From Octopus vulgaris (Eukaryota), in NCBI GenBank assembly GCA_951406725.2, contig OX597815.1, positions 38,750,001 to 38,814,000 on the forward strand: a DNA stretch of 64,000 nt, written 5' to 3'. The notes below the pieces were generated by a model. The model did not search any database and was not told where the DNA came from. It saw only the letters and a list, made by a program, of their open reading frames with translations. The first letter of the stretch is position 1. Every line of letters starts with the position of its first letter. The position numbers and the translations under genes are program-made. Positions 3,256 through 63,560 of this stretch are shown in pieces.

Positions 3256-4392
3256 TAGTGATTACAGTTAACAAGGAACTACACCCCCAAAAGCGATACT
3301 GACAGCGTATGTGCCTAGAAACAGGGGTGGAAGAGGTTTCATAAGATGCAAGATCTGTGGTGTCAACGAGAAGAACAGTCTGGGATGGTACATGAAACAG
3401 CAGAGTGAATCCTTGCTTGCCGCTGTTAGAATTAACAATATAATATCTACCGACCATCCACAAGCATTTAATAAATAAGGTGAAGAAGAAAGAATAAGCA
3501 ACTAGAAAATGAAAGCACTTCATGGGAAATACCTCAAAGAAATCGAAAGGAAAGACAAGATCAACACTTGGAGATGACTAAGAAAAAAGTGATCTGAAAA
3601 GATGCAGTGAGGCATTGATATGCTGCGCCCAGAAACAATCTCTGAGAACTTATTGCACCAAGTTCCAAACAGATAAGAGCAGCGAATCGCCCTTTTGTAG
3701 GATGTGTGGCAGCAGAAACGAAACAATCTCACATATTGTGAATGACTGTAGCAAGCTGGCCCCAAAACACTACAAAAAGAGACACGATAATGTGGCTAAG
3801 TCCGTCTACTGGTGGTTATGTGAAAAGTACTGCCTAAACAAAGCACTGTACGAATATGAACCAGAAGGCGTCATCGGGATCATAAATAAGGAACATAAGA
3901 TTCTGCTGGATTTTACAATCCAACGTGACTCCCTAACCGAGGCTTGGAGACATTGTTTAAATAGATAAAGAAAAAAGAAACCAAGATCATAGATATTGCA
4001 ATACCTGGAGATGCACGCATAAGTGACAAAGAACTAGAAAAGATTGAAATATACAGACTACTAAAAGACGAAATAATAAGAATGTGGACTGTGAGGAGAG
4101 TGTGTCATTCCAGTAGTTGTAGGGGCCCTTGAAGCACTAACAAACAAGTTCGAGGAATATGTCAAAAACATCGGAATTAACGTGAGAGCAGAGCAAGCCC
4201 AAAAAACTGCCCTGCTAGGATTTTCAGACTGGTACTTGGATGTTGAATATCAACCATAATAATTAACAACCAAGTATTAAAGCTTGTAATTTGCGGAAAC
4301 TGACCCTGTCAGAACTCTCACAGCATGCTGTTGACCGCTCTCACAGAATATACCAGAACAAACAAGACCAAACGTTCTGAGAAGTAAAACGA
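3255..4392 (+). mobile_element. degenerate 5'-truncated R4/Dong-like element (family 3)
   Basis: GGRG, CRMC..ETISHIVNDC, KRHDNVA, IIDIAIPGD, GAL motifs with stops and frameshifts; (TAG)n/(TAA)n tail. Confidence 0.85.
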
Positions 4393-4442
<50 letters not shown>

Positions 4443-4484
4443 ATAATAATAATAATAATAATAATAATAGTAATAATAATAATA

Positions 4485-4528
<44 letters not shown>

Positions 4529-4542
4529 AATAATGATGATAA

Positions 4543-4586
<44 letters not shown>

Positions 4587-4622
4587 ATAATAATAATAAT
4601 AATAATAGTAATAATAATAATA

Positions 4623-4654
<32 letters not shown>

Positions 4655-4682
4655 AATAATGATGATAATAATGATGATGATG

Positions 4683-4742
<60 letters not shown>

Positions 4743-4744
4743 TA

Positions 4745-6731
4745 ATCATAAAATTCATAGAGCACTCTATGAATAAATGGCAAACAGTCCTACACCTCCA
4801 AACAAAAGAGGGACTCATGAAAACCAAAGACATCCCCATTAGAAGAGGAATATTCCAGGGAGACACGCTCTCTCCACTCATTTTCTGCTTGGCACTGTCA
4901 CCTCTATCTGATATGCTAAATAGAACTAGATGCGGATATAAATGTTACGGCAAAACGATCAGTCACCTTTTATATATGGATGACCTAAAACTATACGCTG
5001 CAAATGACAAACAGCTGGAAACACTATTAAAGACAGTTCATGGATTTACCAAAGAAATAGATATGAAATTTGGATTAGAAAAATGCGCCAAAGTAACCAT
5101 GAAAAGAGGAAAACTAGTTAAGAGTAACAACATCACACTAGATAAAACCAATGAAATAAAAGAATTAGACCAAAGCCAAACTTACAAATACTTAGGAATC
5201 CATGAACTAGATAAGACACAACACACACAAATGAAAGAGAAAATAAAAAAAGAATATTATAGACGAGTTAGATCAATACTAAACACAGAGCTCAATGCTA
5301 GAAACAAGATAATAGGTATCAACACTTTAGCTGTCCCAGTTATAAGTTACAGCTACAATATCCTTAACTGGACACGAAATGAACTGACCAAAATAGATAG
5401 GAAAACAAGAAAAATAATGACAGGATCTAGGATGCATCACCCAAAATCTGACATAGAAAGACTATATATACAACGTATAGAAGGTGGTAGAGGCCTTATA
5501 CAGCTGGAAAACTACTAGAAAATAACCACCATAGGACTGCAAAAATATCTACTTCAGAAGGAAGGAAAACTGATCCAGATAGCGGCAAAACACGAGCAAA
5601 ACAAAAAACTGTTCTCAGTATTTAAGGAAGCTGACAAATACAAACAAGAAATCATACCACCTAATAAACATAAAGAAGAAGAAGAAGAAGAAGAAGAAGA
5701 AGAAGAAGAAGAAGAAGAAGAAGAAGAAGAAGAAGAAGAAGAAGAAGAAGAAGAAGAAGAAGAAGAAGAAGAAGAAGAAGAAGAAGATGAAGAAACAACA
5801 AAAGCTATAAATCAAATGAAATCCAAACTAAAAATAGAACAGCAACGAACCATGATAAAACGATGGCAAGAAAAGCCCCTTCATGGTAAATACTGCACTA
5901 AACTAAACGCAAAAGAAATAGACAATGAAAAATCCCAGCAATGGTTGAGAAGCTCAGGACTCAAAGCAGAAACAGAGGGATTTTTAATTGCAGCACAAGA
6001 CCAAAAGCCTCCACACCAGAAATTACCAAAAGCATGTAATGAAAAGAAATATTACAAGTAACTGCAGAATATGTGGAGATGGACAAGAAACAATAAATCA
6101 TATTATCTCTAGCTACCCAGTCCTGGCTAAGAAGGAATATATTCACAGACATGACAGAGTTGGAACCTACATACATTGGAAGCTATGCCAACATTATGGA
6201 ATAACAACAGAAAAAAGATGGTATAGGCACACACCAGAAAAGGTCACAGAAAACGAGAAAGCAACCATACTCTGGGATATGCCGATACACACAGATAGAG
6301 AAATTAAGGCCAACAGACCAGATATAGTTGTCAGAGATCATGAAGAGAAAAAATGCTTTCTAATTGATGTATCAATACCAGCTGATGACAACGTGTCTCT
6401 AAAAGAAATGGAGAAACTCTCAAAATACAAAGACCTGGAAATAGAGGTAACTAGAATGTGGAATCTGAAAACAGAAACAATTCCTATCATAGTAGGTGCA
6501 TTAGGCATGATAAAAAAATATTCAGACAAATACATAACAAAAACACCAGGACTTACAAACACATATAACATACAGAAAATTGCACTACTAGGCACTGCAC
6601 ACATCCTACGCAGAACACTTTCCATACAATAACCATCAGAGCATCACAACAAATCACAGCACATACCCAAGGCACACAGAGCTGTGCTTGGTAGTGAAGT
6701 GAAAGCACGCTATAAAAATAAAACTACTGAA
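4745..6731 (+). mobile_element. 5'-truncated R4/Dong-like element (family 2) with RT, zinc knuckle and RLE; pseudogenised
   Basis: RT motifs GIFQGDTLSP, HLLYMDDLKLY, YKYLG; stop at 5516, frameshift near 6003; RPDIVV..D; same 3' end as 1016-1822. Confidence 0.93.
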
Positions 6732-10566: not shown

Positions 10567-12372
10567 AAAACACTATGGAATAACAACAGAAAAGCCAAAG
10601 TAAATGAGAAAGCATCGATACTCTGGGATATGCTAATACACAGTCAGAGAAATTAATCCAATAGGCCAGTTGTAATTGTCGGAGATCACCAAGGAAAAAA
10701 CACTTTCTAATCGATATATCAATACCAACAAATGACAATTTTTCTCTAAAAGATACGGTGAAACTTTCGAAATACAAAGATCTGGAAATAGAGGAAAACT
10801 CAAATGTGGAGTCTAAAAACAGAAACAATTCCTATCATAGTAGGTGCATTAGGTATGATAAAAATATTCAAACAAATACATAACAAAACACGAGGACTAA
10901 CAAGTACATACGAGGGACGTTCAGTAAGTAATGGCCTTGACCCACTTGTAGTTGTTTGATCTAGCTGAAAGTGTGCATGTGCAATTATTTATATCTCTAT
11001 AGATTACGTGACAAATTACAGCTCTGAACTAATTGTGGTTTCTGATTTACAGGTGTTTGAACTGAGTCAAGTGTGAAATGGAGCTTGTTGAGTGTCGAGC
11101 AGTGATCCGGGTTTTGTATTTGAAAGGACGCACACCACGGGAGACTTTTGATGAAATGAAAGTAACTTATGGTGATGATGCCCCATCATATGACCTTGTA
11201 AAACGCTGGCATCGTGAATTCAAACATGGTCGGAACTCGTTGGAAACAGCCCCCAGATCTGGTCACCCTCCTTCTGCCATTGATGAAGCATCTGTCCGTC
11301 AAGTTGAGGCTGCCATTTTGGAAGATCGACGCATAACTATTCGCCAAATAGCCCATGAGGTCAAGATTAGTACCGGGTCTGTGAAAACTATCATTCATGA
11401 CTATTTGCATATGCAAAATGTGTCTGCCAGATGGATTCCCAGGTTGCTCACACCTTTCCAGAAGTAAGAACGCGTCGAGTGCTCGAGGATGAATTTGGAG
11501 ATGTGCTAAGAAGATGAGTCAAAATTTTTCAAAAGACTGATTGCACAGGATGAAACCTGGGTCCATCACCATGATTCAGAGACCAAAGTCCAGTCAATGC
11601 AGTGGAAACACCGTGACTCACCTCCTCCAAAGAAGGCAAGGGTGCAGCCCTCCGCTGGCAAGGTCATGCTCACAGTCTTCTGGGACCAGGACGGAGTAGT
11701 GATGACAGATTTCCTGGCAAAGGGTACCACAATTACAGGAGCCTATTACGCTTCACTTTTGAGGAAATTAAAAGAAGCTATCAAAATCAAGAGGCGGGGC
11801 AAGATCAGCAAAGGCATCCTCCTCCTGCAGGACAACGCTCCGGTTCACAACTCGATGGTCGCCATATCAGAAGCACAGGCGTGCGGCTATGAACTCCTCC
11901 CCCAAACCCCTACTCTCCTGACCTTGCACCCTCGGATTTTCACCTCTTCCCAGCCATGAAGTTGTTTTTGAAAGGAAAGCGTTTCCCAGATGATGCAGCC
12001 TTGATTTCTGAAGTCAGGTCGTGGTTGGAGGACCAAGCTGGGGTCTTCTACAAAAACGGTCTCTAGAGCTGCATCATACGATGGGAGAAATGCGTAACTC
12101 TGGGTGGTTCCTATGTAAAAGAAGACTAATAACTGTGCCAAGTTTCGTTGCTCTAATACTATGGGAAGTGGGTCAGGGGCATTACTTATTGAACGCCCCT
12201 CGTATAACAAAAAGAAAATAGAACTACTAGGCATTGCACACATCCTACGTAAAGCACTTTCAATACAGTAAAAATAAGAGCATTACAACAAACCACAGCC
12301 CATTCCCCAGGCACACAGAGCTGCGCTCGGTAGTGCAGTAAAAGCCCATGATGAAAATAAGACTACAGTTTG
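10567..12372 (+). mobile_element. 3' fragment of family 2-like R4/Dong element split by a mariner
   Basis: 10567-10910 and 12203-12372 align colinearly with ~6190-6730; ends in (TAA)n. Confidence 0.85.
10911..12202 (+). mobile_element. full-length mariner transposon, transposase pseudogene
   Basis: TIRs cgagggacgttcagtaagtaatg / cattacttattgaacgcccctcg, TA TSD; WIPRLL, DETW, QDNAP, YSPDLAPSDF motifs; stops at ~11465 and ~11507. Confidence 0.95.
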
Positions 12373-17148: not shown

Positions 17149-17714
17149 TATATATATGTGTGTGTATGTGTGTACGTGTGTGTCTGTGTGAAGATGTGTT
17201 TGTAAGCGTTTGTGTATTGCTTAGTTTACGTGTGTGTTGCTTGCAGTTTTTTTCCGGCATATTCAAATACTAGTAATTATGCCATTAAATTTATACAATG
17301 TATTTGTATTGGCATTAGAGTGACTATTAACGTGACGGTAATCTGATGTCAAATTTCTTAAGGGGATCAGTAACATCCATTACAATTACCATCTACTCGA
17401 ATACCTTAGCTAATTATCATTATTCACATGGAAGGGCTTCAAATTGAGTATTAGAATGTTTTACTATGTCAAACCAAAAATCAGTACACTCACTGTGTGA
17501 GTGTGTACGAGTGTGTGTGAGAGTGTGTGAGAGCGTACGTGTGAACGTCTGTGTGTATATCTATATGTGCATGCGTGTGTGCGCGCGCGCGTTGTCTGTC
17601 TTACATAGACCTCTTAAAAATCCCTGCCACCACCAGAGATGTGAATGTTTTCTACAATCTGAAGGTGTAAATATCGGTATATTTCGGTATGGTCAATTCT
17701 TTTAGTGTTTTTTG

Positions 17715-18040
17715 TTTTGCCAAATAAACACATTCGTTAAACTTCACTCGTTTATTATTGTTCTTATTTTAACTGATGTCCATTGCCCGGAAATCTTTCG
17801 TCACACATCTGTGACCTCTTCAGCGACCTTTTCCGTCCATGTGTGTCTTCCTGTTCCTTTTAGTCCATCTTTAGTCTATGGACTAAACGGAGCAGGAGCA
17901 TGCACAATGACGGAAAGTTTAGCTGAAGAGGTCACGGATGTGTGACGAAAGATTTCCGGACAATGTACATCAGTTAAAATGAGAACAGTAATAAACGTGT
18001 GAAGAACGAATATATGGTGTATGTGTTTATTTGGCAAAAA
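17715..18040. repeat. imperfect ~325 bp palindrome with an HHR motif in each arm
   Basis: Arms centred on ~17874; CTGAAGA-g-gtcac..gtgac-GAAA-gatt-TC at 17923-17956 (+) and 17785-17828 (-). Confidence 0.8.
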
Positions 18041-18190
18041 AAAAGTGCCGAAATATAACAATATCGATTTCACATCAGGAATCTTGCAACACAAATTCGT
18101 AAACGTTATGACGATGTAAACATTATGAATATATTCCATCGCCGAAGGCTGTAGACAAAACCGTTGGGACAGTGGGAAAAATGCTTTTTA

Positions 18191-19241: not shown

Positions 19242-20762
19242 TGATGCATACATACATGTGTGTGTGTCTGTGTATGTGTATGTATGTGTTTGTGTGTATG
19301 TGTGTGTGTGTGTGTGTACATGTGTATAAAAGTTTTTCAAATTTATATATATATATCTGAACGCCTAACAAATAAAATACCAAACTTGCTGCAACTTAAA
19401 TGAAACTTTAAATGTATATCACAAAAAGCTTTTCCATAACTAACTGGAGAGTAATTTTATGAGCTAATATTAAACCAGCTTTTTTCTTGTGAAAGACTAA
19501 TAGATCAAAACAAAAATGTGATTATTTTCTTTCAGCAAGCACAAAATTATATAAAAGGTATTAGCAGACATGAAAAAATATCTGGCAGCTAAATTGTGTA
19601 ATGATGTCTAAGTATAAACGAAGGAGAAGAAAATTGAACTTTTTCTTTCATTTGCGCAATCAGTGCCTGTCATGGCTTCTATTCTATCACCACACAGCAG
19701 AGTAACTATGAGAAAAAATGTTTTAACCTTCAGAACAAAATTAGAAAATTTGCGAATAAATTGTTTCAGTAGCATCAAAATCAAAAGTTTGCTTATTTCC
19801 TACTTTCTGGCGATTTATCAAAACAGATGGAATGACAGGTCCTCTAGGAAAGAATCAGGGAAAACGGTCAATTTGTGACGATATATAAACTGATTTCTTT
19901 CATTTGGCGCAGCTACGTAATTCGAGAGAAGAGTAGGCTCATGATAGAATTAGTATGGTATTTAACTTGCTGAACTGTAAAGCGATGTGAAAAGAAGTCA
20001 ATCATAACAGCCTTTATATTCCAAATATGCCGGTATATAACTGAATATTGTATTACTACAGTTACTCTCGCATTTTATGTCCTCTCTTTCCCAACATTAT
20101 CTTCTGATGAAAGTAGTGAAATACTTGAATATGGATTGACCAGATTTGCATCGGTTTTTAAAGCAAGGCACCTTTGACAATGACAACAGTGAGAGCTTAG
20201 TGATATTCTAAGGTACCTAGATTATGTGACATGTTACGGCCTGGTAAGTTAGTGTGTCTGCTAACAAAACAAACTGTAACAGTATAATCTACTTTGTACA
20301 GCGAGCTTATTGCATAACGACAAATACACATTAATATAAAATACTTTAATGCTAAAACTCCAATGACTGTTTATAAGGACGTCATTTCTGAAGAAAGATT
20401 ACAGCAAATCTAATTCATTTTTCATCATGATAATTAATCGTTAAATCTATTCAAGGATTGTGTGAAATATGTTCAGAATTTCAGATTGCTATGAGACTAA
20501 TAACTTTAAATGTAAAATTATGATTATATTTCAACAAGCAAAGTAGCTAGTTAGAAAATTTCTATAAGAGATGAAAGTAATAAGATATTATAAGAAGCAA
20601 TATTTATCGCCACTTCAACATGGCTATTCCATAAGAACCAACATTACCACCGTTTTTAACCCTAGGAGGAGCCTCCACCAGCTGGTTATCGATGCAATCT
20701 GCATCCGATATATATTGAAAGCAGGAGAGCGAATCCCTACCATCCTCTAGCAGACGATGGGA

Positions 20763-20811
20763 CCACCAGACAGTACGGTTTCGAATTATTTGTGCTCATC
20801 TTCAGTGGTGG
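20763..20811 (-). ncRNA. type I hammerhead ribozyme motif
   Basis: ccacca-CTGAAGA-t-gag..ttc-GAAA-ccgtactg-TC-tggtgg; decayed partner at 21285-21333 (+). Confidence 0.8.
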
Positions 20812-21014
20812 ACAACCGTCCGTTAGAGATAGCAGTGATTCGCTCCAGCTCGCAATATATAGAAAAATAAGTGACAATCAAGCATTGATCTGGCAACAAG
20901 CAAAGTAGTGAGTTAGAAAATATCTGTAAGAGATGAAAGTAGCAACTATACTGAGAAGTAATGTTTATCGCCACTTATGGCTGTTCCTTGAAAAGATCAG
21001 TGACTGATTGTCAC

Positions 21015-21226
21015 ATTTAGCACGCCGGGCGAAATGCGTAGCCGTATTTCGTCTGCCGTTACGTTCTAAGTTCAAATTCCGCCGAGGTCGACTTTGCCTT
21101 TCATCCTTTCGGGGTCGATAAATTAAGTACCAGTTATGCAATGGGATCGATGTAATCGTCTTAATTCGTTTGTCTGTCCTTGTTTGTCCCCTCTATGTTT
21201 AGCTCCTTGTGGGTAATAAAGGAACA
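21015..21226 (+). mobile_element. tRNA-derived SINE, 5' truncated
   Basis: Near-identical to 8750-8957. Confidence 0.88.
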
Positions 21227-23797
21227 TACTTTTCGATATATTATGAACTGGAGCGAATTACTACAATCTCTAACGGACGGGTGTCCACCACTAGGGATGA
21301 GTACAAATAACTCGAAACCATACGGTCTGATGGTCCCGTCATCTGCTAGAAGATGGTAGGGGTTCACTTCACTGCTTGCAATATACATCGGGTGCAGATT
21401 GCATCGATAACGAGCTGGAGGAGGTTCCCCCAGGTGTTAAAAGCGGTAGTAACATCGGCTCTTATCGAACAGCCATGTTGAAGTGACGATAAACGTTACT
21501 TTTTATAATTAACTTAACCATCTAAGAGTTTGAAATTGATGCTATAAACACGTCTGATGTTTTCATTTATAATGGTAAAAGACATTTATATAACTATATT
21601 GTTTCTTTATGTATTGCCTTGATATCTTCCTAAAACTCTAAAAAAATTTAAGGACTTTGTTTCAACAGCAGAGTGCACTGAGGTACAATTGTATTATAGG
21701 CTAGCAGTAACTTTCTATTTGTAGACTGTTGCCTCTTAGTGTATAGTTGTCCATAAACAGAGATTTCCTTCTATGTCTTACCATTTTATTTTTATATTCA
21801 ATGTTTTTTTGTGTCTGCGTATATGTCTGTGTGTATTTATTTGTATCTATTTTTAATTCCGTTCTCTTAACTGAATATTTGATCAGATGTCTCCTCACAT
21901 CTGCATTAAATATTCCGTTCGTTCATAATTTTCTTATCTTATAAGAAAATTGTAATTTCTTTTTTTTCTTCTAGGCTTCTATTATACTCGCAGGTAATTT
22001 GATTACACAAAGGATATGAGAGTTTTTACTTTTAGAAAATATATCTATATCTGGGAAATAATGTTATTAATAATTCCCAATTTTTTCATTAATAACATTA
22101 ATAAATTCACGAACAGTTACATCGTTAGTCATTTGAATTCAAATATAACTCCAGTGAACCAATTAATTGTTCAGTTTATTATCAGATATGAAAGCAAAGA
22201 ACGATGTTTGTGTGCTCGACTTTTGAAAAGTTGTTTGTTATGAAAGTAACAGGTGATGTTTGTGAGCTCGATTTTTTGACTTCTAGCATCGTTCACACAT
22301 CAGTGACAATATAACACTGCGATTCATGGGAAGAGCGATGCCTTCAGTCATTTCGTAAAATATTGTTATTGCAGTAACATGTATTATATGCCGCAGACTC
22401 TTCGTAATGAATTGTTTAAATTTGCTTGATTTATCTGCGGTCATGGTAATTTTCATTTGAAAGTAGTTGAGTTTATTGAGTTTACAATGAGAAATATTCA
22501 TTCAAGTTCAACATGCATATTTTATAACGTTTCAGATTTTTCTTTGAAGCGCTTCTTTATATATTCTTTTTGGTTCTCCTTATTATATTCTGTTTATTTA
22601 CAACAACTTTTGCTCTGAATAATCACCAAGTCTTTATGTTACAATGTTACGTATAATGGTGATATGTTCTTCCCACGGCATCCTACTTTGTAACTTTTCA
22701 CGTAGAATTTTAAATGTTTTTTTTTTCAACGACAACCTACGATTCACCTGTTGAGATGGATTTAACATGATCTATTTTTCATATTACCTTCACTATATAC
22801 TTTGCATTAAAACTCACGTTCTATAGCACGGTATCAAAAATTGTCTCATGTTGTTAATGGTTGATGAAATTTTTGAAAACTGTCTGGCAGCAAACATTCG
22901 CCTTAAATTAATCAGTTGAATACGTGACTTCGTTATATTCGAAGTAGGAGCTATAGGAGAGAGATAGCGAGAAAGAGAGAGAGAATGAGATAGATGGTGA
23001 GCGGTAGGAATGGAAAATATTAACAAATGTTATGGGACATCAACATTGCTGATGTAATTGTTGATTTTTGTCATCTTTTCTGTGTCTGGTGTTACGTTTC
23101 TATTTAATTGTTCCTTTTGTGATTGTAGCGTAAATGCTAGTTTCTTTTCTTAATTTGCTTCTTTCCAAACAATGAAGAAACGGTGCCTCCTTTTGAAACC
23201 GCTTCTGCATATGTTATCGAAAATTTATGCGTATACATATTTTAGATGAAAATATAGATGACTTTGTATTTATTCCCTCAAGGCTAACTGCATGTAATCT
23301 CTTAAAGTAAATTTATTAACCAGACAACAAAATTTTTGAAAATTTTCCTTTACATGACTTTCAGTACACGGAATATTGAATTTTATAATCTGAAGTTTTA
23401 AGTTTTACTAGCGTTGTGATAGCTACTAAGTCAGTTGTAAAGAAGTATATAATGGCTTGTGGTATTTATACGAACTTCTATTAATCAGCATAGTTGGTGG
23501 TTATAAAATACACTTTAGGGGCTAGCAACTTCTGCCGTTCACTAACATAGTCAATTGCGATGCCCTACGCACTCATAGTTGATTATAACCATGTCAACAC
23601 ATGCTAATTTGTAATTGACTTCATGCAATACATAACAACGCCACTTCCTGATGACAAACTCGGTCTCTTCCACAAATTGTATTGGTATCACAGTGCTATC
23701 AAATTCACCAGGTACTGTAAAGCAACCTTGTATAGTTTATCGAGTCTACTTGTATTATAGTTAAAACAACATGTATATATATATATATATATATATA

Positions 23798-24023
23798 CTT
23801 TATTTAAAGCAGCAGAAAATTCAACAAAATCTGTTACTCTGAGTTTCTCGTTGCCGTTCATCAGACAGTTTTTGCTAGAAAAACTGTCTGATGAACGGCA
23901 ACGAGAAACTCAGAGTAACAGATTTTGTTGAATTTTCTGCTGCTTTAAATAAAGCATATTACTCTACCACTGGTATTTGAGTACTCTTTTTTCCACCTTG
24001 TTTCACACTTATGTGTTTACTCC

Positions 24024-24026
<3 letters not shown>
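23798..24026. repeat. foldback element: perfect 76 bp inverted repeat plus ~70 bp tail, inside (TA)n
   Basis: 23798-23873 is the exact reverse complement of 23879-23954; spacer gctag. Confidence 0.92.
23884..23921 (+). ncRNA. minimal type I hammerhead motif (mirror copy at 23831-23868, -)
   Basis: ctgt-CTGATGA-acg gcaa cga-GAAA-ctcagag-TA-acag. Confidence 0.8.
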
Positions 24027-24072
<46 letters not shown>

Positions 24073-24074
<2 letters not shown>

Positions 24075-24351
24075 CTTATAAATAAGGGCAAACGAAAACA
24101 TTTCTAATGCCAAATATGCCGAAATTGTAACTATTGTCCATAACCATTTAATTTTTCACAATACGCACAATGCGTATTGTGAAAAATTAAATGATTATGG
24201 ACAATAGTTCCAATTTCGGCATATTTGGCATTAGAAATGTTTTCGTTTGCCCTTATTTATAAGTTGTTTATAATTTTAACCTTTAAAGGTATTTTTTAAT
24301 ATGCTGGACATTGATAAAATTTTTTTTTCGAAAAAATTTTATCCTACATTA
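24073..24351. repeat. foldback element: 95 bp inverted repeat (2 mismatches) plus ~85 bp tail, inside (TA)n
   Basis: 24073-24167 vs 24171-24265, spacer caa. Confidence 0.9.
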
Positions 24352-24414
24352 AATATATATATATATATATATGTTCTGCATATATTTATTTGTATTTATG
24401 TGCCTATCTGATTT

Positions 24415-24474
24415 ATTCAACTGATGAGGCAAAGCTTATATTTAAAGCAAAGTTAGAAATCCAGGATCTTGAAT
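24415..24474 (+). ncRNA. type I hammerhead motif within a ~330 bp (TA)n-flanked unit
   Basis: attcaa-CTGATGA-ggc aaa gctt..aagc aaa gtt a-GAAA-tccagga-TC-ttgaat. Confidence 0.75.
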
Positions 24475-24698
24475 TATTCATTTATACTTTTTACTAGTCT
24501 ATTTTGTCTCTCAGTCTTATCTCATGTGCGATATGAACATTTAATGTGGTTCTTAGAGTCAGGGTTTTGACTGCTATTTCGGCATGGTGGTGTCTCTCAG
24601 ACACCCTTATTTTTAGTTGTAAAAAAATTATTACCTTTGTATGGTATTTTTCCCATGTTGGCCACTAGATAATATCGATATTTAAATATCGATATTAT

Positions 24699-24755
<57 letters not shown>

Positions 24756-24850
24756 CCTTTAATTGGAATAGTTTCCAAAAGATTTCAAACGTTGATTTTT
24801 CATACTTTACTTTGAATTTACTGATGCAAATTGGCGTAGATATGAAAGGT

Positions 24851-25380
24851 TATATAAGTATATTAAGTTTATGATTTAAGTTATAGAACGAAGTTCGACA
24901 AATTCAATCATGTTTTTCATAAATAGAGGAGATTAGATGTTAATATGGAATAAAATATTTTTATTCGTTTCACTATACGATTGTTTCGTACAGAAAGACA
25001 ATAAATTCATTCTAAGAATCTGTGTTGTCAAAGTCTTTTAACATAAGTGTCTTAAATAGACATGCCTTCTAAAGTGTTTAAATAGACAAGACTCCAAGAA
25101 CAAATACACATTAAAAAACTTAGTAAAAACACCGTACCCCTGTAATTTTAAAGTCCCTCTTTTTTATTTATTTACTTTTTATTATTTTTTTCGTATTGTG
25201 CTACTCAGATTCTTAAAATGAATTTATTGTTTTTCTGTACGAAGCGATCATATACCGAAATGAATAAATATATATTTTATTCCATATTAACATCTAATTT
25301 CCTCCATTTATGAAAAATATGATTGAAATTGGTGAACTTCGATCTATAACTTAAATCATAAACTTAATATACTTATATAT
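24851..25380. repeat. inverted-repeat element with ~170 bp diverged arms and TA-rich ends
   Basis: 24851-25024 vs 25203-25378 reverse complement. Confidence 0.8.
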
Positions 25381-28760: not shown

Positions 28761-31480
28761 TGAAATTGAAACGATTATATGCGTGGTTTGAACGTGTATG
28801 TTCACCACAAGTCATTGTATATAGTGGTTTCCGACAGAAATGACTTGGTACACTTCTCCAGTGTGAAGCGCTTACGACATAGCACGGCATATAGAAACAG
28901 CCAGTGTGTTTCGCGACCCACACTGCCATAAACCCACCCTCCCTCAATTTATACTTCATCTCTAGAACACTGTTTCATCAATTTTAAAATCTGGTCCAGA
29001 ACCACATCACTTTTTAGTTGTGAACCTGGGCCTATCCACATAGCTATTATGATCAACGGTTGTGTCGTGGATCATGCCCTACTTCCCACCACAAAATCAG
29101 ACCATGACCAGTTCCACGAACCATAAATAGAAGAACAGAGCTACGGTTCTAAAACCATGTGCCTTTTCTTTTTCACAGACAGGAGTTAGTTACATCTAGC
29201 CCTGTTACGGGGCTAGAAGAGGCTGCCGTGAACTAATGTCATCCTTATAGCACATCAACTGCGACACATCAACGGAATTATCCCTTTCTCTTGAAAATAA
29301 AAAATCTAGCCACGTTCTTTCCATCTTTAAATTCTTCAATACTATTTCGAGATTCAATGTTTCTACACACTCATAATAATTTGCTTTTGAAAAACATATG
29401 GCGAGCACTGATTGAAAAACTTGATCGAACAAGTATGAGATGAGAGATGTTGCATCTTTGAAAACAGACAAGTTCGACATCCAGCATGGCGATAATGAAG
29501 ATTTCCGGCTGGATAAAATTAGCATAAATTTAAAACTTTAATGCAGTGTAACGTTTTATTATTATTATTAATTTTTGTAATAATTATTTTGAGTCTTGCA
29601 ATTAGCATGCAAAACTACATCGGTGTAGAAAATTTGAAGAAAATCAAACACTGAATAAAAGAGAATAAAATCCAAATTTCTTAGAAATTCATTCGGAAGT
29701 GAACTTACGATTTCCTTTTACAATTCGTGGCTTCCATTTTTCGTGAACTTGAAGAAAATACTCGTTTGTGCATTATAAATCTAAATCTAATTCTCTTGAG
29801 AAATAAGTTTCAAAACTAAATCTTCTTGAATGAGATTTCAGACAATCTAGCTCGCATAGCACGCTAAATCACCTTTCACATTAATATTTGCTAAGTTATC
29901 TCCCACGTAAGTTTTGCTTTCTTCATTTTGCTCATCTTCACAGTATATGTCCAGTTTTATATTATAACTTGCAACATTTGTTCAATAAATTATAGAATGT
30001 TATTACGCTTATGCATTTATTAATTTCCACTTAGGAAATTTAAAATAGACATTATTTACATTTGACGGATATTTGTCCACATTTTGTTTGTTGTTAACAC
30101 AATGTTTCGGCGGCTGATATACCCTCTAACTTTCATCAAGTGCCTTGGGAAAATTTCGAACCTGGGTTCTCATCCCTAAGGTATTTCTCGATATTGTTAT
30201 TATTATTATTAAGGTCACTGCCTGGCATCGAACTCGGTATCTAGGGGTTAATAACCCGCACTTTTAACCCCCTACACCATATGCCCGTGGGAAATTATGG
30301 AGTGAATTTTAGGGCTCATAAATCTAATATTTTTCTATCCTTCCTTAATACCGGTTCCCATATGCTATTCAAATCTGCACTCGGTCTGCTTAGGAGGTTT
30401 TGTGCCCTAGAATATGTGCTGCTTCTTTTAGTTTTCGCATTTTCCAGTGGTGTTCTCTGTCTATATATCCGTCAAATGTAAATAATGTAAAAACTATCTA
30501 TTTGAGTATGGACACTGATATATCAACATAAAAAGGGTTTAGCTATGGGTTCGTCATTATCACCGATAATAGCCAATATATACATGGAATACTTCGCAAA
30601 TTTTGACATTAGGATCAATATCACTAAAACCAACCCTATGCCTCGATATATTGATGACACCTGTATTCTCTGCTGTTAGATCATGTGAACTCAATAAAGC
30701 AATCCATACAGTTCACAATGGAAAAGGAAAAAGAGTATCAACTAGAATTACTGGACATATTAATAACATGCACCAAGTATGGATTCGGGACATCCGTATA
30801 CCGCAAGCCGACCTTCACTGGACGATACCTCAACTTCAATTCCCACCATCCATACAGTGTAAAGAGAGGAATTGCTCAGTACCTCGAGCAAAGAATATAA
30901 GTAGCGATCGAGATACCCACCACGAGAAAATGATCAAGCTCCGTAACAATGTATTAAGCAACAAATACCCCCAAAACATACTATCCACTCCAATTATGAA
31001 GAAAAGAGAGGATGCAAACAATAAATTGTCTACAGTCTATCTACTCTATGTGAAAGTATTCAAGAGTAATACAACACTTCACAAATATCGCCTTCGGCTA
31101 AAACCACCAGTAGAAGAGAATAATGACGAAATACTTCGTGTACCCAATCCCATGCAACTGTGGTAGGTTATACAAAGGTGAAACATGCCGCTCCCTCAAA
31201 ATAAGGGTAGACAAACATCGCAAAGCTAACACAAGAAGATATTGATAAATCGGGTATAGCAGATCATGTATGGAAAAACGGAGACCACCTCCCCCTGTGG
31301 GATGAAGTTAAAATAATAGACAGAAATACGAAACTAAAAGAAGCAGCACATATACTAGGACACAACCTCCTAAGCAGACCGAGTGCAGATATGAATAGCA
31401 TATGGGAACCGGTATTAAGGAAGGATAGGAAAATATTAGATTTATAAGCCCTAAAATTCATTCACGCCAGAATTGCCCAC

Positions 31481-31550
31481 GGGCATATGTGTAGTGGTTA
31501 AGGGCGCTGGCTACTAACCCCAAGATTACGAGTTCGATTCCAGGCAGTGA

Positions 31551-31553
<3 letters not shown>
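31481..31553 (+). promoter_or_regulatory. tRNA-like Pol III A/B-box module in PLE pLTR (also ~37068-37140 +, ~30210-30290 -, ~34950-35030 -)
   Basis: tagtggttaag A-box, ctactaa loop, gagttcgattcc B-box, followed by (AAT)n. Confidence 0.7.
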
Positions 31554-31587
<34 letters not shown>

Positions 31588-31635
31588 GTCGAAAAATATC
31601 TTAGGAATGAAAACCCAGGTTCGAAATTTCCCCAA

Positions 31636-31681
31636 GACACCTGATGAAGGCTGGAGGGTTTATCAGCCGAAACGTTGTCTT
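31636..31681 (+). ncRNA. minimal hammerhead motif in PLE pLTR
   Basis: gacac-CTGATGA-a-ggctg..cagcc-GAAA-cg-TT-gtctt. Confidence 0.75.
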
Positions 31682-32507
31682 AACAACAAACAAGATGATG
31701 ACAAATATCCGTCAATTGTAAATACTACACATAATTCCTCATCACTAAAATATAGGACTGTTGAACAAAAATATTTTTAGTATTTTAAGCTGTTACAAAA
31801 ATTAATGTCCACGAATATTTTGCTCAGAGGATTTATTAGTTTTAAACCAAGTGCGACATACTGGCAGAATCATTAGTGTTGTACAAAGTGCCTTGCGGTA
31901 TTTGCTGCTAACCTGAGTTCCGATCCTTCTGAGGTCAACTTTGCCTTTCATGCCTGAGTGGTCAACGAAATAAAGTACCAATCAAGCACTGGTGTTGATT
32001 TAATCAACTGACACCACCCTGTCAGTCTCTGTGCCACTATTAGAAGCAAATGGTACTTACATTTATCTGTAGGTTAGGAAGAATATCAAACTAGAATTTT
32101 ATGTATGCATGTGTTCTCATGCACTTGTGATGAACAAATAACTGATTTCTCCTGTGTGCAAGATATAAGAGATTCTTTTACATTTTTCCGATATAATTAA
32201 ATCTATGTTTAACTGAGTTGGGAGATGGATGTATTATCGTTAATAAATTCTTTACTTTTTTCCATACACTCAGGATGTTATAGTTGGCAATTCAAAACTT
32301 CATATCGTTTAATCTCTTTATTACTGATATTGTTTTCTTGTAATGAGCTGAACTTTTCACCTTAGTCATTTATCCTTGTTGAAAATAAGATACTTCTTGA
32401 TAAAGAAATTAGTAAAAATCAATATGAAATAATCTTGATAATCACTTAGATCATTTCAATTCGGTAATGATAAACAAGAAATCTAGTTAATAATAACATT
32501 AATTATA

Positions 32508-34714: not shown

Positions 34715-37328
34715 TTCACATTATTTACATTATTTACATTTCACTGATATTTATCCTCATCTTGTTTGTTGTTAACACAACGCCTCGCTGATATACCCTC
34801 CAGCCTTCATCAGGTGCCTTGGGGAAATTTCGACCCTGGGTTCTCATTCCTAAGGTATATTTCGATATTAGTATTATTATTATTAATATTTTTTATTATT
34901 ATTATTATCATTATTATTATTATTATTATTATTATAATCATCATTATTCAGGTCCCTGCCTGGAATCGAACTTGGAACCTTAAGGTTAGTAGCTCGCGCT
35001 CTTAACTACTGCACCATATGCGCGTGGGCAATTCTGGAGTGAATGAATTTTAGGGCTTATAAATCTAATATTTTCCTATCCTTTCTTAATACCGGTTCAC
35101 ATATGCTACTCATATCTGCACTCAGTCTGCTTAGGAGGTTGTTGTGTCTTAGCATTTGTGCTGCTTCTTTTAGTTTTCGTTTTTTCCAGTAGTGCTCTCT
35201 GGCTATTATTTTAACTTCATCCACAGGGGTAGGTGGTCTCCAGTTTTCCATACATGATCTGCTATACCCGATTTATCAATATCTTCTTGTGTCACAGCTT
35301 TGCGATGTTCGTCTACTCTTATTTTGAGGGGACGGCATGTTTCACCTTTGTATAACCTACCACAGCTGCATGGAATGGAATACACGCAGTCTTTGGTCAT
35401 ATTCTCTTCTACTGGTGGAAATGCTACAGTGATGATACTACAGTGTGATGAACAAGTCTAACTACTCTAAAAAATCGGCAAATCCTATAAGTGATGGTAA
35501 CTACAGAAAAGAAAAGAAAAGAAAGACCCACCTTTGAAAACAGAGAAAGTTGTCACAATCCTTGATCAAGAACAATGAAGTACAGGCAACTGACTCAACA
35601 CTACAGTAAACTACCACACATGTACAGTCTTCCTAAGATTCACAAGGGTGCTATTCCATTAAGACCTATAGTGAGCTGTAGTGGTTCAGCATGTCATCCA
35701 CTGAGCCGCTTCCTTGTGGATATAATCAGTCCATTAGCAGGAAAATCAACATCGTACGTGAAGAATTCCACCCACTTCACAGAATTGATCAAGAGTACAC
35801 CCATTGAATTCAACCAGATGGAGAGTCTAGATGTGATAAGTCAGTTCACCAAAGTCCCAACTGGTGAAGCACTATCTGTGATTCAAGAAAAAGTAGTGAG
35901 AGACACCCATCTAAAAGAACTCACTATTATACCAATAAGAAACTTGATGGAAATGTTGACCTTCTGTGTAGGAACTACTTACTGCAGTATGGACACTGAT
36001 ATATATCGGCATAAAGAGGGTTTGGCAATGGGTTTGCCATTATCACTGATACTAGCCAATATATAGATGGAATACTTAGAGAATTTTGGCTTTAGAATCA
36101 ACACAAACTAAAATCAGACCTATGGCTGTGATATGTTGACGATACCTTTATACTCTGGCCCCACCAGGAAGATGTCCAAGTGCTGTTAGATCATGTGAAC
36201 TCAATAAAGCAATTCATACAGTTCACAATGGAAAAGGAAAATATAATCAGCTAGCATGGACGTACTAATAACGTACTAATGGACGTACTAATAACACGCA
36301 CCAAATATGGATTCAGGACATCCGTATACCGCAAGCTGAACCTCACTGGATACCTCAACTTCAATTCCCACCATCAATACAGTGTAAAGAGAGGAATTGC
36401 TCAGTGCCTAAAATATCGTGCAAAGAATATAAGTAGCGATCATGATACATACCACGAAGACATGATCAAGCTCAGTAACAATGTATTAAACAACGACTAC
36501 CCCAAAAACATAATATCTACTCCAATTATGAAGAAAAGAAAGGATGAAACCAACAAATTGTCTACAGTCTGTCTACCCTATGTCAAAGTCGTCTCCGAAA
36601 ATATACAAAAGATATGCAGCATAGGACAGTATTGAAGAGTAATACAACAATTCGCAAATATCTCCTTCGAGTAAAACCACCAATAAAAGAGAATATGACC
36701 AAAGACTGCGTGTACTCCATTCCATGCAGTTGTGGCAGGTTATACAAAGATGAAATATGCCGCCCCCTCAGAATTAGGGTAGAGGAACATCGTAAAACTA
36801 TGACACGAGGAGATATTGATAAATGGAGTATAGCTGATCATGTATGGAAAAATGGAGACCACTGCCCCTGTGAGTTGAAGTTAAAATAATAGGCAGAAAA
36901 CACCACTGGAAAATACGAAAATCAGAAGAAATAGCACATATCCTAGGACACAACAACCTCCTAAGCAGAGCGAGTGCAGGTATGAATAGCATATGGGAAC
37001 CGGTATTAAGGAAGGAAAGGAAAATATTAGATTGTAAGCCCTAAAATTCACTCCAGAACTGATCGCAGGCATATGGCGTAGTGGTTAAGGGCGCTGGCTA
37101 CTAACCTCAAGATTCTGAGTTCGGTTCCAAGTAATGATCTTAATAATAATAATGATAATAATAACCTTAGGAATAAGAACCAAGGTTCGCAATTTCACTA
37201 AGACACCTGAAGAAGGCTGGCGGATATATCAGCCGAAACGTTGTGTTAACAACAAACAAGATGAGGACAAATATCCGTCAACTGTAAACAATGTACATAA
37301 TTCCTCATCTCTTAGATATAGAACTGTA
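34715..37328 (+). mobile_element. Penelope-like element (RT + GIY-YIG, pseudogenised) with inverted 5' copy of its 3' end
   Basis: LPKIHK..PLRPIVS, GLAMG.PLS..LANI, YVDDTF, VYSIPCSCGRLY; 34715-35420 is the reverse complement of ~36680-37300. Confidence 0.93.
37202..37247 (+). ncRNA. minimal hammerhead motif in PLE pLTR
   Basis: gacac-CTGAAGA-a-ggctgg..tcagcc-GAAA-cg-TT-gtgtt. Confidence 0.8.
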
Positions 37329-62239: not shown

Positions 62240-63480
62240 GAGAGAGAGAGATGGAGTTAAACGCAGGTGTTATTCAAATCTCTTTACTTCCGACATATGT
62301 TTTGAGGAATAAAATGATGTAAAACAATGCAATCTTCTCATTATGGAAAGAAAGAAACCAAAGACATCAGTAAAACAATTTAGCAGAATGAGATGACTGT
62401 GCATATGATGAAAGGAACGCTAGCAAGTTGGGTTGTTTTTTTAAAAAAAACTTTAACAGATATAACGTCAAGGGCAGTTTATAGAAAGAGAAGGGAGAGG
62501 AAAATAATAGTGGAGAGATATAGAGCGAAAGGTGAATAGGAATAAATCTTAAAGGCTTGGAAGTAGATATATTTAGTGGAAGTGAAATTTAAGAAGATAG
62601 TTAAAGGTCGAATTTTATAGAATGGTACAAATCACTTATAGGAACTAAGGGTATGTTTTTGCCAATGTTTGCAACGATAAACGTGTTTACAAGAGGATTC
62701 TCTGAGAACAAGATGAAATACATTTCATCGTTACAAAGGGAACAGAAAGATTTACCTTTATCATACGGAAATAATTTAGATAGAATATTCCATTCCAAAT
62801 CAAAGTTTTTAATACTATGACCCTTTAGATACCAAATTAATTTATTAAGTCCAATATCGTTACGTTTATTGATATGTCTAAATGTAGAGTAATGATTAGA
62901 AATTCTTTTGGAGAACTGAGATGAAGAACTATCTATATAAAAAAAAGACACCAGAACTGGAAGTAATTTTACATTGGTAAATAGAGTTTCAAATCTTAGA
63001 ATTACTACTAAGGAAACGAATGCGAACATAGCTGTTATTATTCTTTAAAGAATGGTTAGTGTTAACAATATTACCATTTTCATTAAGTGGATTTGCATTT
63101 AACAACTTATTATTATGCGAAGAAATGATTTGTGAAAGATGTTTTTATGTTAGAAAATCATATCTTGATTCGGTGTGAATTAATAATCGAATAGTATCTT
63201 GAATTTTTGGGAAATTCCTTTCTATAGCTACACGAAGCTGATAAAAAAAAGGTTGGATTTGATCTACTTACCATATGGAATTATCAACCAAACAGTTTCG
63301 CTAGGACGTACCTTGTTATTAGGGTAATTATCTTTAAAAGCACTCGATGTACCTTTATAACGAAAAATGGGTTTTAAATATTGGTTATCTCCCTTACGCT
63401 GCAAAATTACATTACACAATTTAGTGTTGTTATTCGAACTAAGATTAATATTGTTAATGTCGTTATGACGTGATGGACAG
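62240..63480 (-). mobile_element. decayed Penelope-like 3' region (GIY-YIG) ending at an (AGAT)n tract
   Basis: FSKRISNHYSTFRH..L.K.IW.LK..W.IL....Y....CSLC..E motif; decayed HHR at 62288-62348. Confidence 0.75.
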
Positions 63481-63560
63481 CCATGTTGAAATGGCTACGA
63501 ACATTACTTGTTAGTACAACTGCTGTGTTGATCTCTTAGAGAGATTTTAGAACTATACAC

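What the first reader, a model, noticed from the sequence alone, without database searches (positions are those of the whole stretch)
23798..24026. Perfect 76-bp foldback with back-to-back hammerheads inside (TA)n
Seen: (TA)n, short arm, gctag spacer, long arm, (TA)n. The arms are identical and each encodes an HHR pointing outward, sharing the same A-A mismatch at the base of stem II. Inference: a very young pLTR-only insertion made by snap-back or template-switch synthesis. A read-through transcript would form long dsRNA masking the ribozyme, a candidate ADAR or siRNA substrate.
Basis: partly seen in the sequence, partly recalled or inferred. Interest (0 to 1): 0.7.

Follow-up and report, generated by a model that had tools for sequence, protein, structure and literature searches.

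The report
Head-to-head Penelope retroelement stub with hammerheads
A perfect DNA mirror repeat holding two outward-facing self-cutting-RNA (hammerhead) motifs is real and belongs to a very abundant repeat family; it is likely an ordinary, doubly truncated insertion of a Penelope-like jumping gene, a layout already described for these elements.

Summary
In detail: perfect 76-bp arms (23798-23873, 23879-23954), a 5-nt centre, a minimal type I hammerhead motif in each arm, and (TA)12 and (TA)24 flanks. It is not single-copy. Three assemblies lay 3,547-6,201 contigs on the stretch, nearly all on the element, against 1-2 listed on the flank. They show two family 3' ends running into (TA)n and many different inversion points. 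The hammerhead has the plan of Hydra-clade Penelope-like elements (PLEs), and head-to-head inverted pLTRs in (TA)n are published PLE features. Three corrections: the 'spacer' is native element sequence joined through a 2-nt microhomology; A at the A-A site is the family's commonest letter, so it does not date the copy; and 0/76 differences allow up to 3.9% divergence. The one-sided 66-71-nt tail favours two cDNAs primed from both target strands over pure snap-back (inferred). Artefact was not excluded directly, because the one raw-read run did not cover the arms. Parent element, polymorphism, transcription, editing and cleavage are untested. Verdict: new member of a known kind, low interest.

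The parts
23774..23797 (.). (TA)12, left half of the likely target microsatellite
   Evidence: read directly
23798..23880 (-). short copy (83 nt) of the family's 3' end, 5'-truncated, ending at the family's short terminus; includes the GCTAG centre and AA as native upstream sequence
   Evidence: loose ends behind 23880 (21 X1, 10 X4 contigs) and behind 23959 running into (TA)n (35, 38, 35 contigs)
23831..23868 (-). minimal type I hammerhead motif, left arm (mirror of 23884-23921)
   Evidence: core at 23864 on the - strand
23879..23880 (.). 2-nt AA overlap (microhomology) joining the two copies head to head
   Evidence: inferred from the native continuation behind 23880
23879..24025 (+). long copy (147 nt), 5'-truncated, ending at the family's long terminus
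   Evidence: loose ends behind 24022 running into (TA)n (39, 38, 29 contigs)
23884..23921 (+). minimal type I hammerhead motif: stem I 23884-87/23918-21, core 23888-94, A23895 opposite A23904, stem II 23896-97/23902-03, GAAA 23905-08, palindromic helix III 23908-16, predicted cut after 23917
   Evidence: same plan as Hydra-clade rows of File S2 in PMC8557442 (compared by eye)
23955..24025 (+). 'tail' of 66-71 nt present on one arm only, lying between the two family termini
23960..23985 (+). stem-loop in the tail (CTC-hairpin-GAG-ACT plan) that resembles the 3' ends of three published Hydra consensus sequences and the start of a fourth; candidate signal for the reverse transcriptase
   Evidence: z -2.1, 8 of 200 shuffles as good; by-eye comparison; only match in the window (motif made after the fact)
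24026..24073 (.). (TA)24, right half of the likely target microsatellite

Best explanation
This is a head-to-head pair of 3'-end pieces (83 and 147 nt) of a very abundant hammerhead-bearing repeat family sitting in a (TA)n run, likely a doubly truncated insertion of a Penelope-like retrotransposon of Hydra type, likely made when the element's enzyme nicked both strands of the (TA)n and primed two short cDNAs that were then joined. Steps: (1) inferred: an RT/GIY-YIG protein from an autonomous element elsewhere binds an RNA carrying this 3' end and nicks both strands of (TA)n; (2) the two termini are shown, their cause is inferred: one cDNA starts at the inner site (23954-59), the other at the outer site (24025), which gives a tail on one arm only; (3) variable junctions are shown: both cDNAs stop early, here just upstream of the hammerhead; (4) inferred: they are joined through a 2-nt AA/TT overlap. 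The hammerheads are passengers. They are of the kind that needs a dimer through the helix III palindrome, and in a read-through RNA they would be masked by the 76-bp duplex (predicted). Confidence in PLE origin alone is about 0.9; the figure below is for PLE origin plus the two-cDNA route.
For: Family: 6201, 3547 and 3626 contigs laid on the stretch in X1, X3 and X4, with summed depth on the element 1e5-2.4e6 against 48.7, 24.1 and 9.7 on the flank (the tool warns this is no copy number; hammerhead-bin ratios of 39,000-79,000 fall to 1,250-2,550 if divided by 31 for overlapping contigs). Both arm ends here coincide with two family termini that run into (TA)n in all three assemblies. Of 53 joints 15 were shown; 14 of them are 'skip' joints that read as head-to-head junctions at different points. 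Hammerhead plan: helix III actc-N-gagt in 5 of 25 Hydra-clade families, a base mismatch in stem II in 15 of 25, stem I ctgt/acag in Hydra-2_aMil, (TA)n listed as target for nearly all, and Penelope-13_HM has a 5' inverted copy with the hammerhead on both strands (my counts). An inverted 5'-truncated copy and a one-sided tail are typical of PLEs; head-to-head is the commonest arrangement. A purified PLE protein cuts and extends both strands and starts at two sites that bound the tail. Four more outward-facing inverted hammerhead units lie in this window.
Against: No parent ORF was found: the upstream motif is absent from the window and four collection scans were blank. The published Hydra-1_Obim 3' end looks different (by eye), so clade placement rests on RNA motifs alone, and small palindromic helices III also occur in other PLEs. 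The tail is 66-71 nt, not the 30-40 bp in print. Stem II is 2 bp beyond the mismatch, shorter than the 3-7 bp of all 25 Hydra rows, and none of them has A-A. No target-site duplication can be read in (TA)n. Raw-read run X21 laid only 8 reads, all on the tail, none on arms or flank, which does not fit a high-copy family if X21 is the same organism. No listed record bridges this centre with 31 letters on both sides. Identical arms fit snap-back equally well.
Confidence: 0.55

Rival explanations
1. Same PLE family, but made by snap-back: the top-strand cDNA ending in GCTAGAA folds its last AA onto TT, copies itself to give the identical arm, then switches to a second template that supplies the tail.
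For: The junction has exactly this geometry (2-bp stem, 5-nt native loop) and the arms are 76/76 identical. Self-priming is the published reading of palindromic junctions. Similar centres appear in other contigs (X3 record 10, 23849-23931, 7 other letters and 1 gap; X1 joint 23883 to 23940).
Against: The fold is unstable alone (+1.8 kcal/mol). The left arm holds no tail to copy, so a second antisense template is needed anyway. Many shown joints have unequal truncation points on the two sides, which a simple fold-back does not give.
Confidence: 0.27
2. The palindrome is older than it looks or was copied whole: a palindromic source copy is amplified as a unit, or the arms were made identical after insertion by gene conversion or hairpin repair.
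For: Near-identical centres exist in other contigs. The tail has one private letter (24008) while the arms show none at the 5% reporting level.
Against: Most shown junctions differ from each other. Neighbouring foldbacks do diverge: 2 of 94 at 24074-24264, 89% at 24851-25379, 79% at 17710-18044. One difference in 71 nt against none in 76 is not significant.
Confidence: 0.1
3. Assembly or library artefact (fold-back chimera).
For: No raw read or contig shown bridges the centre by the tool's 31-letter rule; X21 gave no read on the arms; the junction of flank and element was not seen because contigs end in the (TA)n.
Against: A chimera would mirror the tail and the right flank too. Instead the left arm stops at a real family terminus and meets (TA)n, then a flank present in all three assemblies (1-2 differences in 342-463 bases). 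Head-to-head joints occur in independent samples.
Confidence: 0.05
4. A MITE or foldback DNA transposon that targets TA.
For: Palindromic, short, non-coding, TA-flanked and abundant.
Against: The ends are asymmetric (tail on one side), the centre varies between copies, and the family continues upstream of the centre. It carries a hammerhead of PLE plan.
Confidence: 0.03

Closest known systems
Hydra-clade Penelope-like elements and their hammerheads (Craig et al. 2021, PMC8557442; e.g. Hydra-2_Amil, Hydra-2_Ajap, Penelope-3_HM, Penelope-13_HM)
   Same: (TA)n target; type I hammerhead near the 3' end; 9-nt odd palindrome as helix III (actc-N-gagt); unpaired pair at the base of stem II; GUA-ACAG; 5' inverted copy with the hammerhead on both strands (Penelope-13_HM); a similar stem-loop downstream (by eye).
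   Different: No ORF here; A-A instead of U-U; 2-bp stem II; a common C4 variant (16-56% of depth); 3' end unlike the published Hydra-1_Obim, so a different family.
Inverted pLTR plus tail structure of EN+ PLEs (Arkhipova et al. 2013, PMC3846280; Frangieh et al. 2024, PMC11167929)
   Same: Head-to-head inverted copy overlapping the direct copy; tail on one end only; two termini.
   Different: The whole insert is 228 bp with no body; the tail is 66-71 nt rather than 30-40; overlap 2 nt rather than 15.
Minimal hammerheads of metazoan PLEs (Cervera and de la Pena 2014, PMC4209133)
   Same: Minimal core, extra nucleotide after position 9, palindromic helix III, thousands of dispersed copies, pairs on opposite strands 100-700 bp apart.
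   Different: The conserved G10.1-C11.1 pair is missing; helix II is short, not long.
Non-LTR retrozymes (Cervera and de la Pena 2020, PMC7229834; Li et al. 2026 preprint)
   Same: Short non-coding repeats with a type I hammerhead, linked to PLEs.
   Different: Retrozymes are head-to-tail tandem units of 150-450 bp; this is head-to-head, with one sense hammerhead per strand.

Membership tests
EN+ Penelope-like element (insertion structure) | Inverted 5'-truncated copy adjacent head to head | tested here: met
EN+ Penelope-like element (insertion structure) | Optional tail at one end (two termini) | tested here: met
   two termini running into (TA)n in 3 of 3 assemblies; length 66-71 nt, longer than the 30-40 bp in print
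EN+ Penelope-like element (insertion structure) | Type I hammerhead in the pLTR | tested here: met
   motif and helices present; no Rfam match; cleavage not tested
EN+ Penelope-like element (insertion structure) | Linked RT plus GIY-YIG ORF in an autonomous parent | not testable with these tools
   no genome held; only 30 upstream letters shown; scans blank
Hydra clade | Insertion into (TA)n | tested here: met
   shared with Neptune and Naiad, so not diagnostic
Hydra clade | Protein motifs (RWK, DKT, CxCX5C linker, no CCHH) | not testable with these tools
   no ORF in the element; motifs
Hydra clade | Hammerhead plan as in File S2 (not a formal criterion) | tested here: inconclusive
   close by eye, but A-A and a 2-bp stem II are not among the 25 families, and no table for other clades was compared
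Metazoan minimal hammerhead | G10.1-C11.1 pair at the base of helix II | tested here: not met
   A opposite A, then C-G; feature
Metazoan minimal hammerhead | Palindromic helix III that allows a dimer | tested here: met
   self-duplex -7.4 kcal/mol; monomer helix III pair probability 0.002
Metazoan minimal hammerhead | Self-cleavage as a dimer | not testable with these tools
   needs an in vitro assay
Non-LTR retrozyme | Head-to-tail tandem units each with a hammerhead | tested here: not met
   no tandem unit here; the copies are head to head
MITE | Fixed symmetric termini and fixed internal structure | tested here: not met
   asymmetric ends and variable centre

The most novel reading that the evidence does not exclude
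This family is a genome-wide record of PLE integration by double target priming: thousands of tiny head-to-head inserts whose two arms start at two fixed sites set by a stem-loop conserved across Hydra-clade tails (not described in the text I read). Such self-pairing stubs could be a main source of the perfect double-stranded RNA that drives heavy A-to-I editing in the likely host, an octopus (host recalled, not tested).
Probability: 0.25. Interest if true: 0.5.

Novelty: new member of a known kind. Interest (0 to 1): 0.2.

Why it matters
As a single locus it matters little: the structure, the target and the ribozyme type are in print, and this window alone holds five such units. The family could be useful. 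How PLEs form inverted structures is still open (PMC8557442 names it as a task for future work), and a family with thousands of short head-to-head copies allows a direct count of arm identity, junction overlap and tail side. If the host is an octopus, which has unusually many near-perfect dsRNA-forming loci and high hyper-editing (PMC5625713), these stubs are candidates for part of that load. This was not tested.

Tried and rejected
No whole genome is held, so genome BLAST and empty-site checks were impossible. Rfam: 0 matches at gathering score over 64 kb; the 59 matches at E<=10 over 23700-24800 are mostly microRNA and snoRNA models fitting hairpins, all below gathering, rejected. No second copy of the element in the window. 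Pattern scans of metagenome (2), viral (1) and prokaryote-genome (1) collections: 0 hits. Sequencing runs: no RNA holder listed; this blank says nothing on expression. X21 was uninformative for the locus. Truncation at the hammerhead cut site: 3 of 14 shown skip joints end within 4 nt of 23917/18; by my rough estimate about 1.3 are expected, so this is a lead only. A-to-G/T-to-C family variants as traces of editing: rejected for now, since 3 of the 5 sites (23889, 23892, 23978) are CpG/TpG pairs and direction is unknown. Host gene: 9 nearby open frames gave only hits below Pfam cut-offs. PLE remnants in the window: Pfam 0 of 5, PDB sequence search blank at E<0.46, homolog search among longer proteins blank; the Atlas gave GIY-YIG-like leads for 36548-36886 and 62604-62930. 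Earlier findings by sequence, by place and by a six-word query: none. Lunse et al. 2017 is not held. The supplement of PMC13282606 was listed but not read; the Repbase Hydra sequences and any octopus repeat library were not seen and may already hold this family.

Full report
Observation. The arms 23798-23873 and 23879-23954 are complementary at 76 of 76 positions around GCTAG. The right arm continues to 24025, and the unit lies between (TA)12 and (TA)24. It folds as one hairpin at -138.3 kcal/mol, z = -24, with 0 of 200 shuffles as good. Each arm has a minimal type I hammerhead motif facing outward. A structural descriptor found 6 motifs in the window against 0-2 in 20 relaxed and 0 in 20 strict Markov controls. 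Rfam does not detect it. As a monomer the fold is weak: z = 0.4-0.6 and helix III pair probability 0.002, while the helix III palindrome pairs with a second copy at -7.4 kcal/mol. This is the dimer-dependent type.

Setting. The window is microsatellite-rich animal-like DNA with broken RT and mariner-type frames. I take the host to be an octopus from recall of its short repeats; no call tested this, and no genome is held.

Family. I laid 4 of 24 listed runs on 23300-24025 at 80% likeness. X1, X3 and X4 laid 6201, 3547 and 3626 contigs, nearly all on the element; 1-2 listed contigs cover the flank, with 1-2 differences. Summed depth is 1e5-2.4e6 on the element and 48.7, 24.1 and 9.7 on the flank. 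The tool warns that this is no copy number; ratios of 39,000-79,000 over the hammerhead bins fall to 1,250-2,550 if divided by 31 for contig overlap. So thousands of copies at least, and the single-copy refutation fails. Loose ends show two termini that run into (TA)n in all three assemblies: behind 23959 (35, 38, 35 contigs) and behind 24022 (39, 38, 29). These are exactly where the short and long arms end, so the extra 66-71 nt is a family-level tail. Of 53 joints 15 were shown, each in 1-2 contigs per run; 14 are 'skip' joints that read as head-to-head junctions at different points, so the inversion point is variable. Loose ends behind 23880 (21 contigs in X1, 10 in X4) share one continuation, so GCTAG+AA is native to the minus-strand copy and the junction is a 2-nt AA overlap.

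Results against. The only raw-read run, X21 (1,934 million letters read), laid 8 reads, all on the tail, with three differences shared by all reads covering them, and none on arms or flank. Either it is another organism under the same label or reads were filtered; it neither confirms the palindrome nor fits the high copy number. No listed record bridges the centre with 31 letters on both sides; the nearest is X3 record 10 (23849-23931, 7 other letters, 1 gap). Contigs end inside the (TA)n, so presence or absence in other samples is unknown.

The A-A site and age. At 23904 and its mirror, A is at most 56%, 76% and 77% of summed depth; U and G make up the rest (biased towards the reference letter). 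It is the commonest family state, not a private mutation copied into both arms. A C at core position 4 is also common (56%, 27%, 16%). Zero differences in 76 allow up to 3.9%. With the clock quoted for octopus repeats (distance 0.09 = 25 million years; PMC13282606, passages) that is up to about 5 million years, if the host guess is right. Position 24008 differs from 98-99% of family depth. The copy is young compared with its neighbours (2 of 94, 89% and 79% arm identity figures), but 'very young' is not shown.

What is known. Craig et al. 2021 (PMC8557442; passages, section 11, supplement parts 2, 52, 53 and searches) describe an inverted 5'-truncated copy next to the pLTR and a one-sided 30-40-bp tail as typical of PLEs, and (TA)n as the target of almost all Hydra families. 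In their hammerhead table, by my count over 25 Hydra-clade families, 5 have helix III actc-N-gagt, 15 have U-U or U-C at the base of stem II, none has A-A, and stems II are 3-7 bp. Penelope-13_HM is listed with a 5' inverted copy and the hammerhead on both strands. By eye, the 3' ends of Hydra-2_Amil, Hydra-2_Ajap and Hydra-1_Crog and the start of Hydra-1_Ajap share a CTC-hairpin-GAG/GTG-ACT stem-loop with our tail (23960-23985, 8 of 200 shuffles as good). It is the only match in the window, with 1 match in 30 controls, but the motif was made after the fact. I did not see it described in the parts I read, and one search returned no other PLE paper on it; this is not proof that it is unpublished. 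Hydra-1_Obim has a different 3' end. Arkhipova et al. 2013 (PMC3846280, passages) call head-to-head the most frequent arrangement and propose self-priming. Frangieh et al. 2024 (PMC11167929, parts 1-2 of 4) show that a PLE protein cuts and extends both strands, starts at two sites that bound the tail, and does not need hammerhead cleavage in vitro. Cervera and de la Pena 2014 (PMC4209133, parts 1-2 of 4) report minimal hammerheads in thousands, some paired on opposite strands, inactive as monomers and weak as dimers. Also seen: Li et al. 2026 preprint (part 1 of 5), and passages of PMC7229834, PMC6765202, PMC5625713, PMC9977147 and PMC6962438.

Mechanism. Shown: two termini, one on each arm, variable junctions and a native centre. 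Inferred: a PLE protein supplied in trans nicks both strands of (TA)n and primes two cDNAs, one from each start site; both stop early and are joined through AA/TT. Snap-back has the same junction geometry and explains the identical arms, but the fold is unstable (+1.8 kcal/mol) and the left arm has no tail to copy, so a second template is needed anyway. One locus cannot separate the two routes; I give 0.55 and 0.27. In read-through RNA of either strand the antisense arm comes first, the arms pair with probability >=0.988, and on the + strand stems I and II fall to about 0. The masking is therefore predicted, but these hammerheads would be nearly inactive as monomers anyway. No transcript, host gene or editing was shown.

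Context. Four more inverted units with outward-facing hammerhead cores, some damaged, lie in the window: 17710-18044, 20587-21509, 30049-31761 and 34720-37327. The last encloses a frame with a GIY-YIG-like Atlas lead (PF01541 on 20% of members of the third hit), which Pfam does not confirm. The same (TA)n cluster holds a second foldback with a one-sided extension and a third insert with a hammerhead motif of similar plan. An earlier AI note from another genome (e1-7788996) describes the same kind of palindromic stub; it is unchecked and not independent support.

Verdict. A real feature and an ordinary product of Penelope-like retrotransposition, probably of an uncatalogued Hydra-like family. 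New member of a known kind; interest 0.2.

Noticed in passing
window 24074-24350: Second foldback in the same (TA)n cluster: 94-nt arms with 2 mismatches, 3-nt centre, one-sided extension of about 86 nt, then (TA)n. Same layout as the finding, unrelated sequence, no hammerhead found.
   Followed up: partly
window 24373-24701: Third insert between (TA)n runs, with a type I hammerhead motif at 24421 (6-bp stem I, 9-nt palindromic helix III, A bulge before GAAA) and a perfect 32-nt palindrome at 24668-24699.
   Followed up: partly
window 24851-25379: 177-bp inverted repeats, 89% identical, around a 177-bp middle, TA-flanked; MITE-like or another inverted PLE stub.
   Followed up: no
window 17710-18044, 20587-21509, 30049-31761, 34720-37327: Four older inverted units with outward-facing hammerhead cores, of three other families; the second is split by a 208-bp dispersed repeat (21017-21224) and the last two enclose broken frames.
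   Followed up: partly
window 62601-63550 (-): Decayed frame whose C-terminal part resembles by eye the endonuclease end of Hydra-clade PLE proteins; the Atlas gives a GIY-YIG-named cluster at 0.95, Pfam and the homolog search are blank. No sequence link to the finding.
   Followed up: partly
window 23889 and 23892: The family often has C at core positions 4 and 7 (C4 share 16-56% of depth). Both are CpG/TpG pairs, so the canonical U4 could be the decayed state in some copies.
   Followed up: no
run X21 on window 23962-24025: Five reads show the tail alone, preceded by (TA)n and without the hammerhead part; three differences are shared by all X21 reads covering them.
   Followed up: no
window 23551-23736 (-): 61-codon open frame with an acceptor-like site near 23713 in the unique left flank; only a sub-threshold Pfam hit. 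If it were an exon, the element would lie in an intron.
   Followed up: partly
window 4736-6632, 11066-11959: Broken RT-bearing frames with long trinucleotide tracts, and a broken mariner-type transposase.
   Followed up: no
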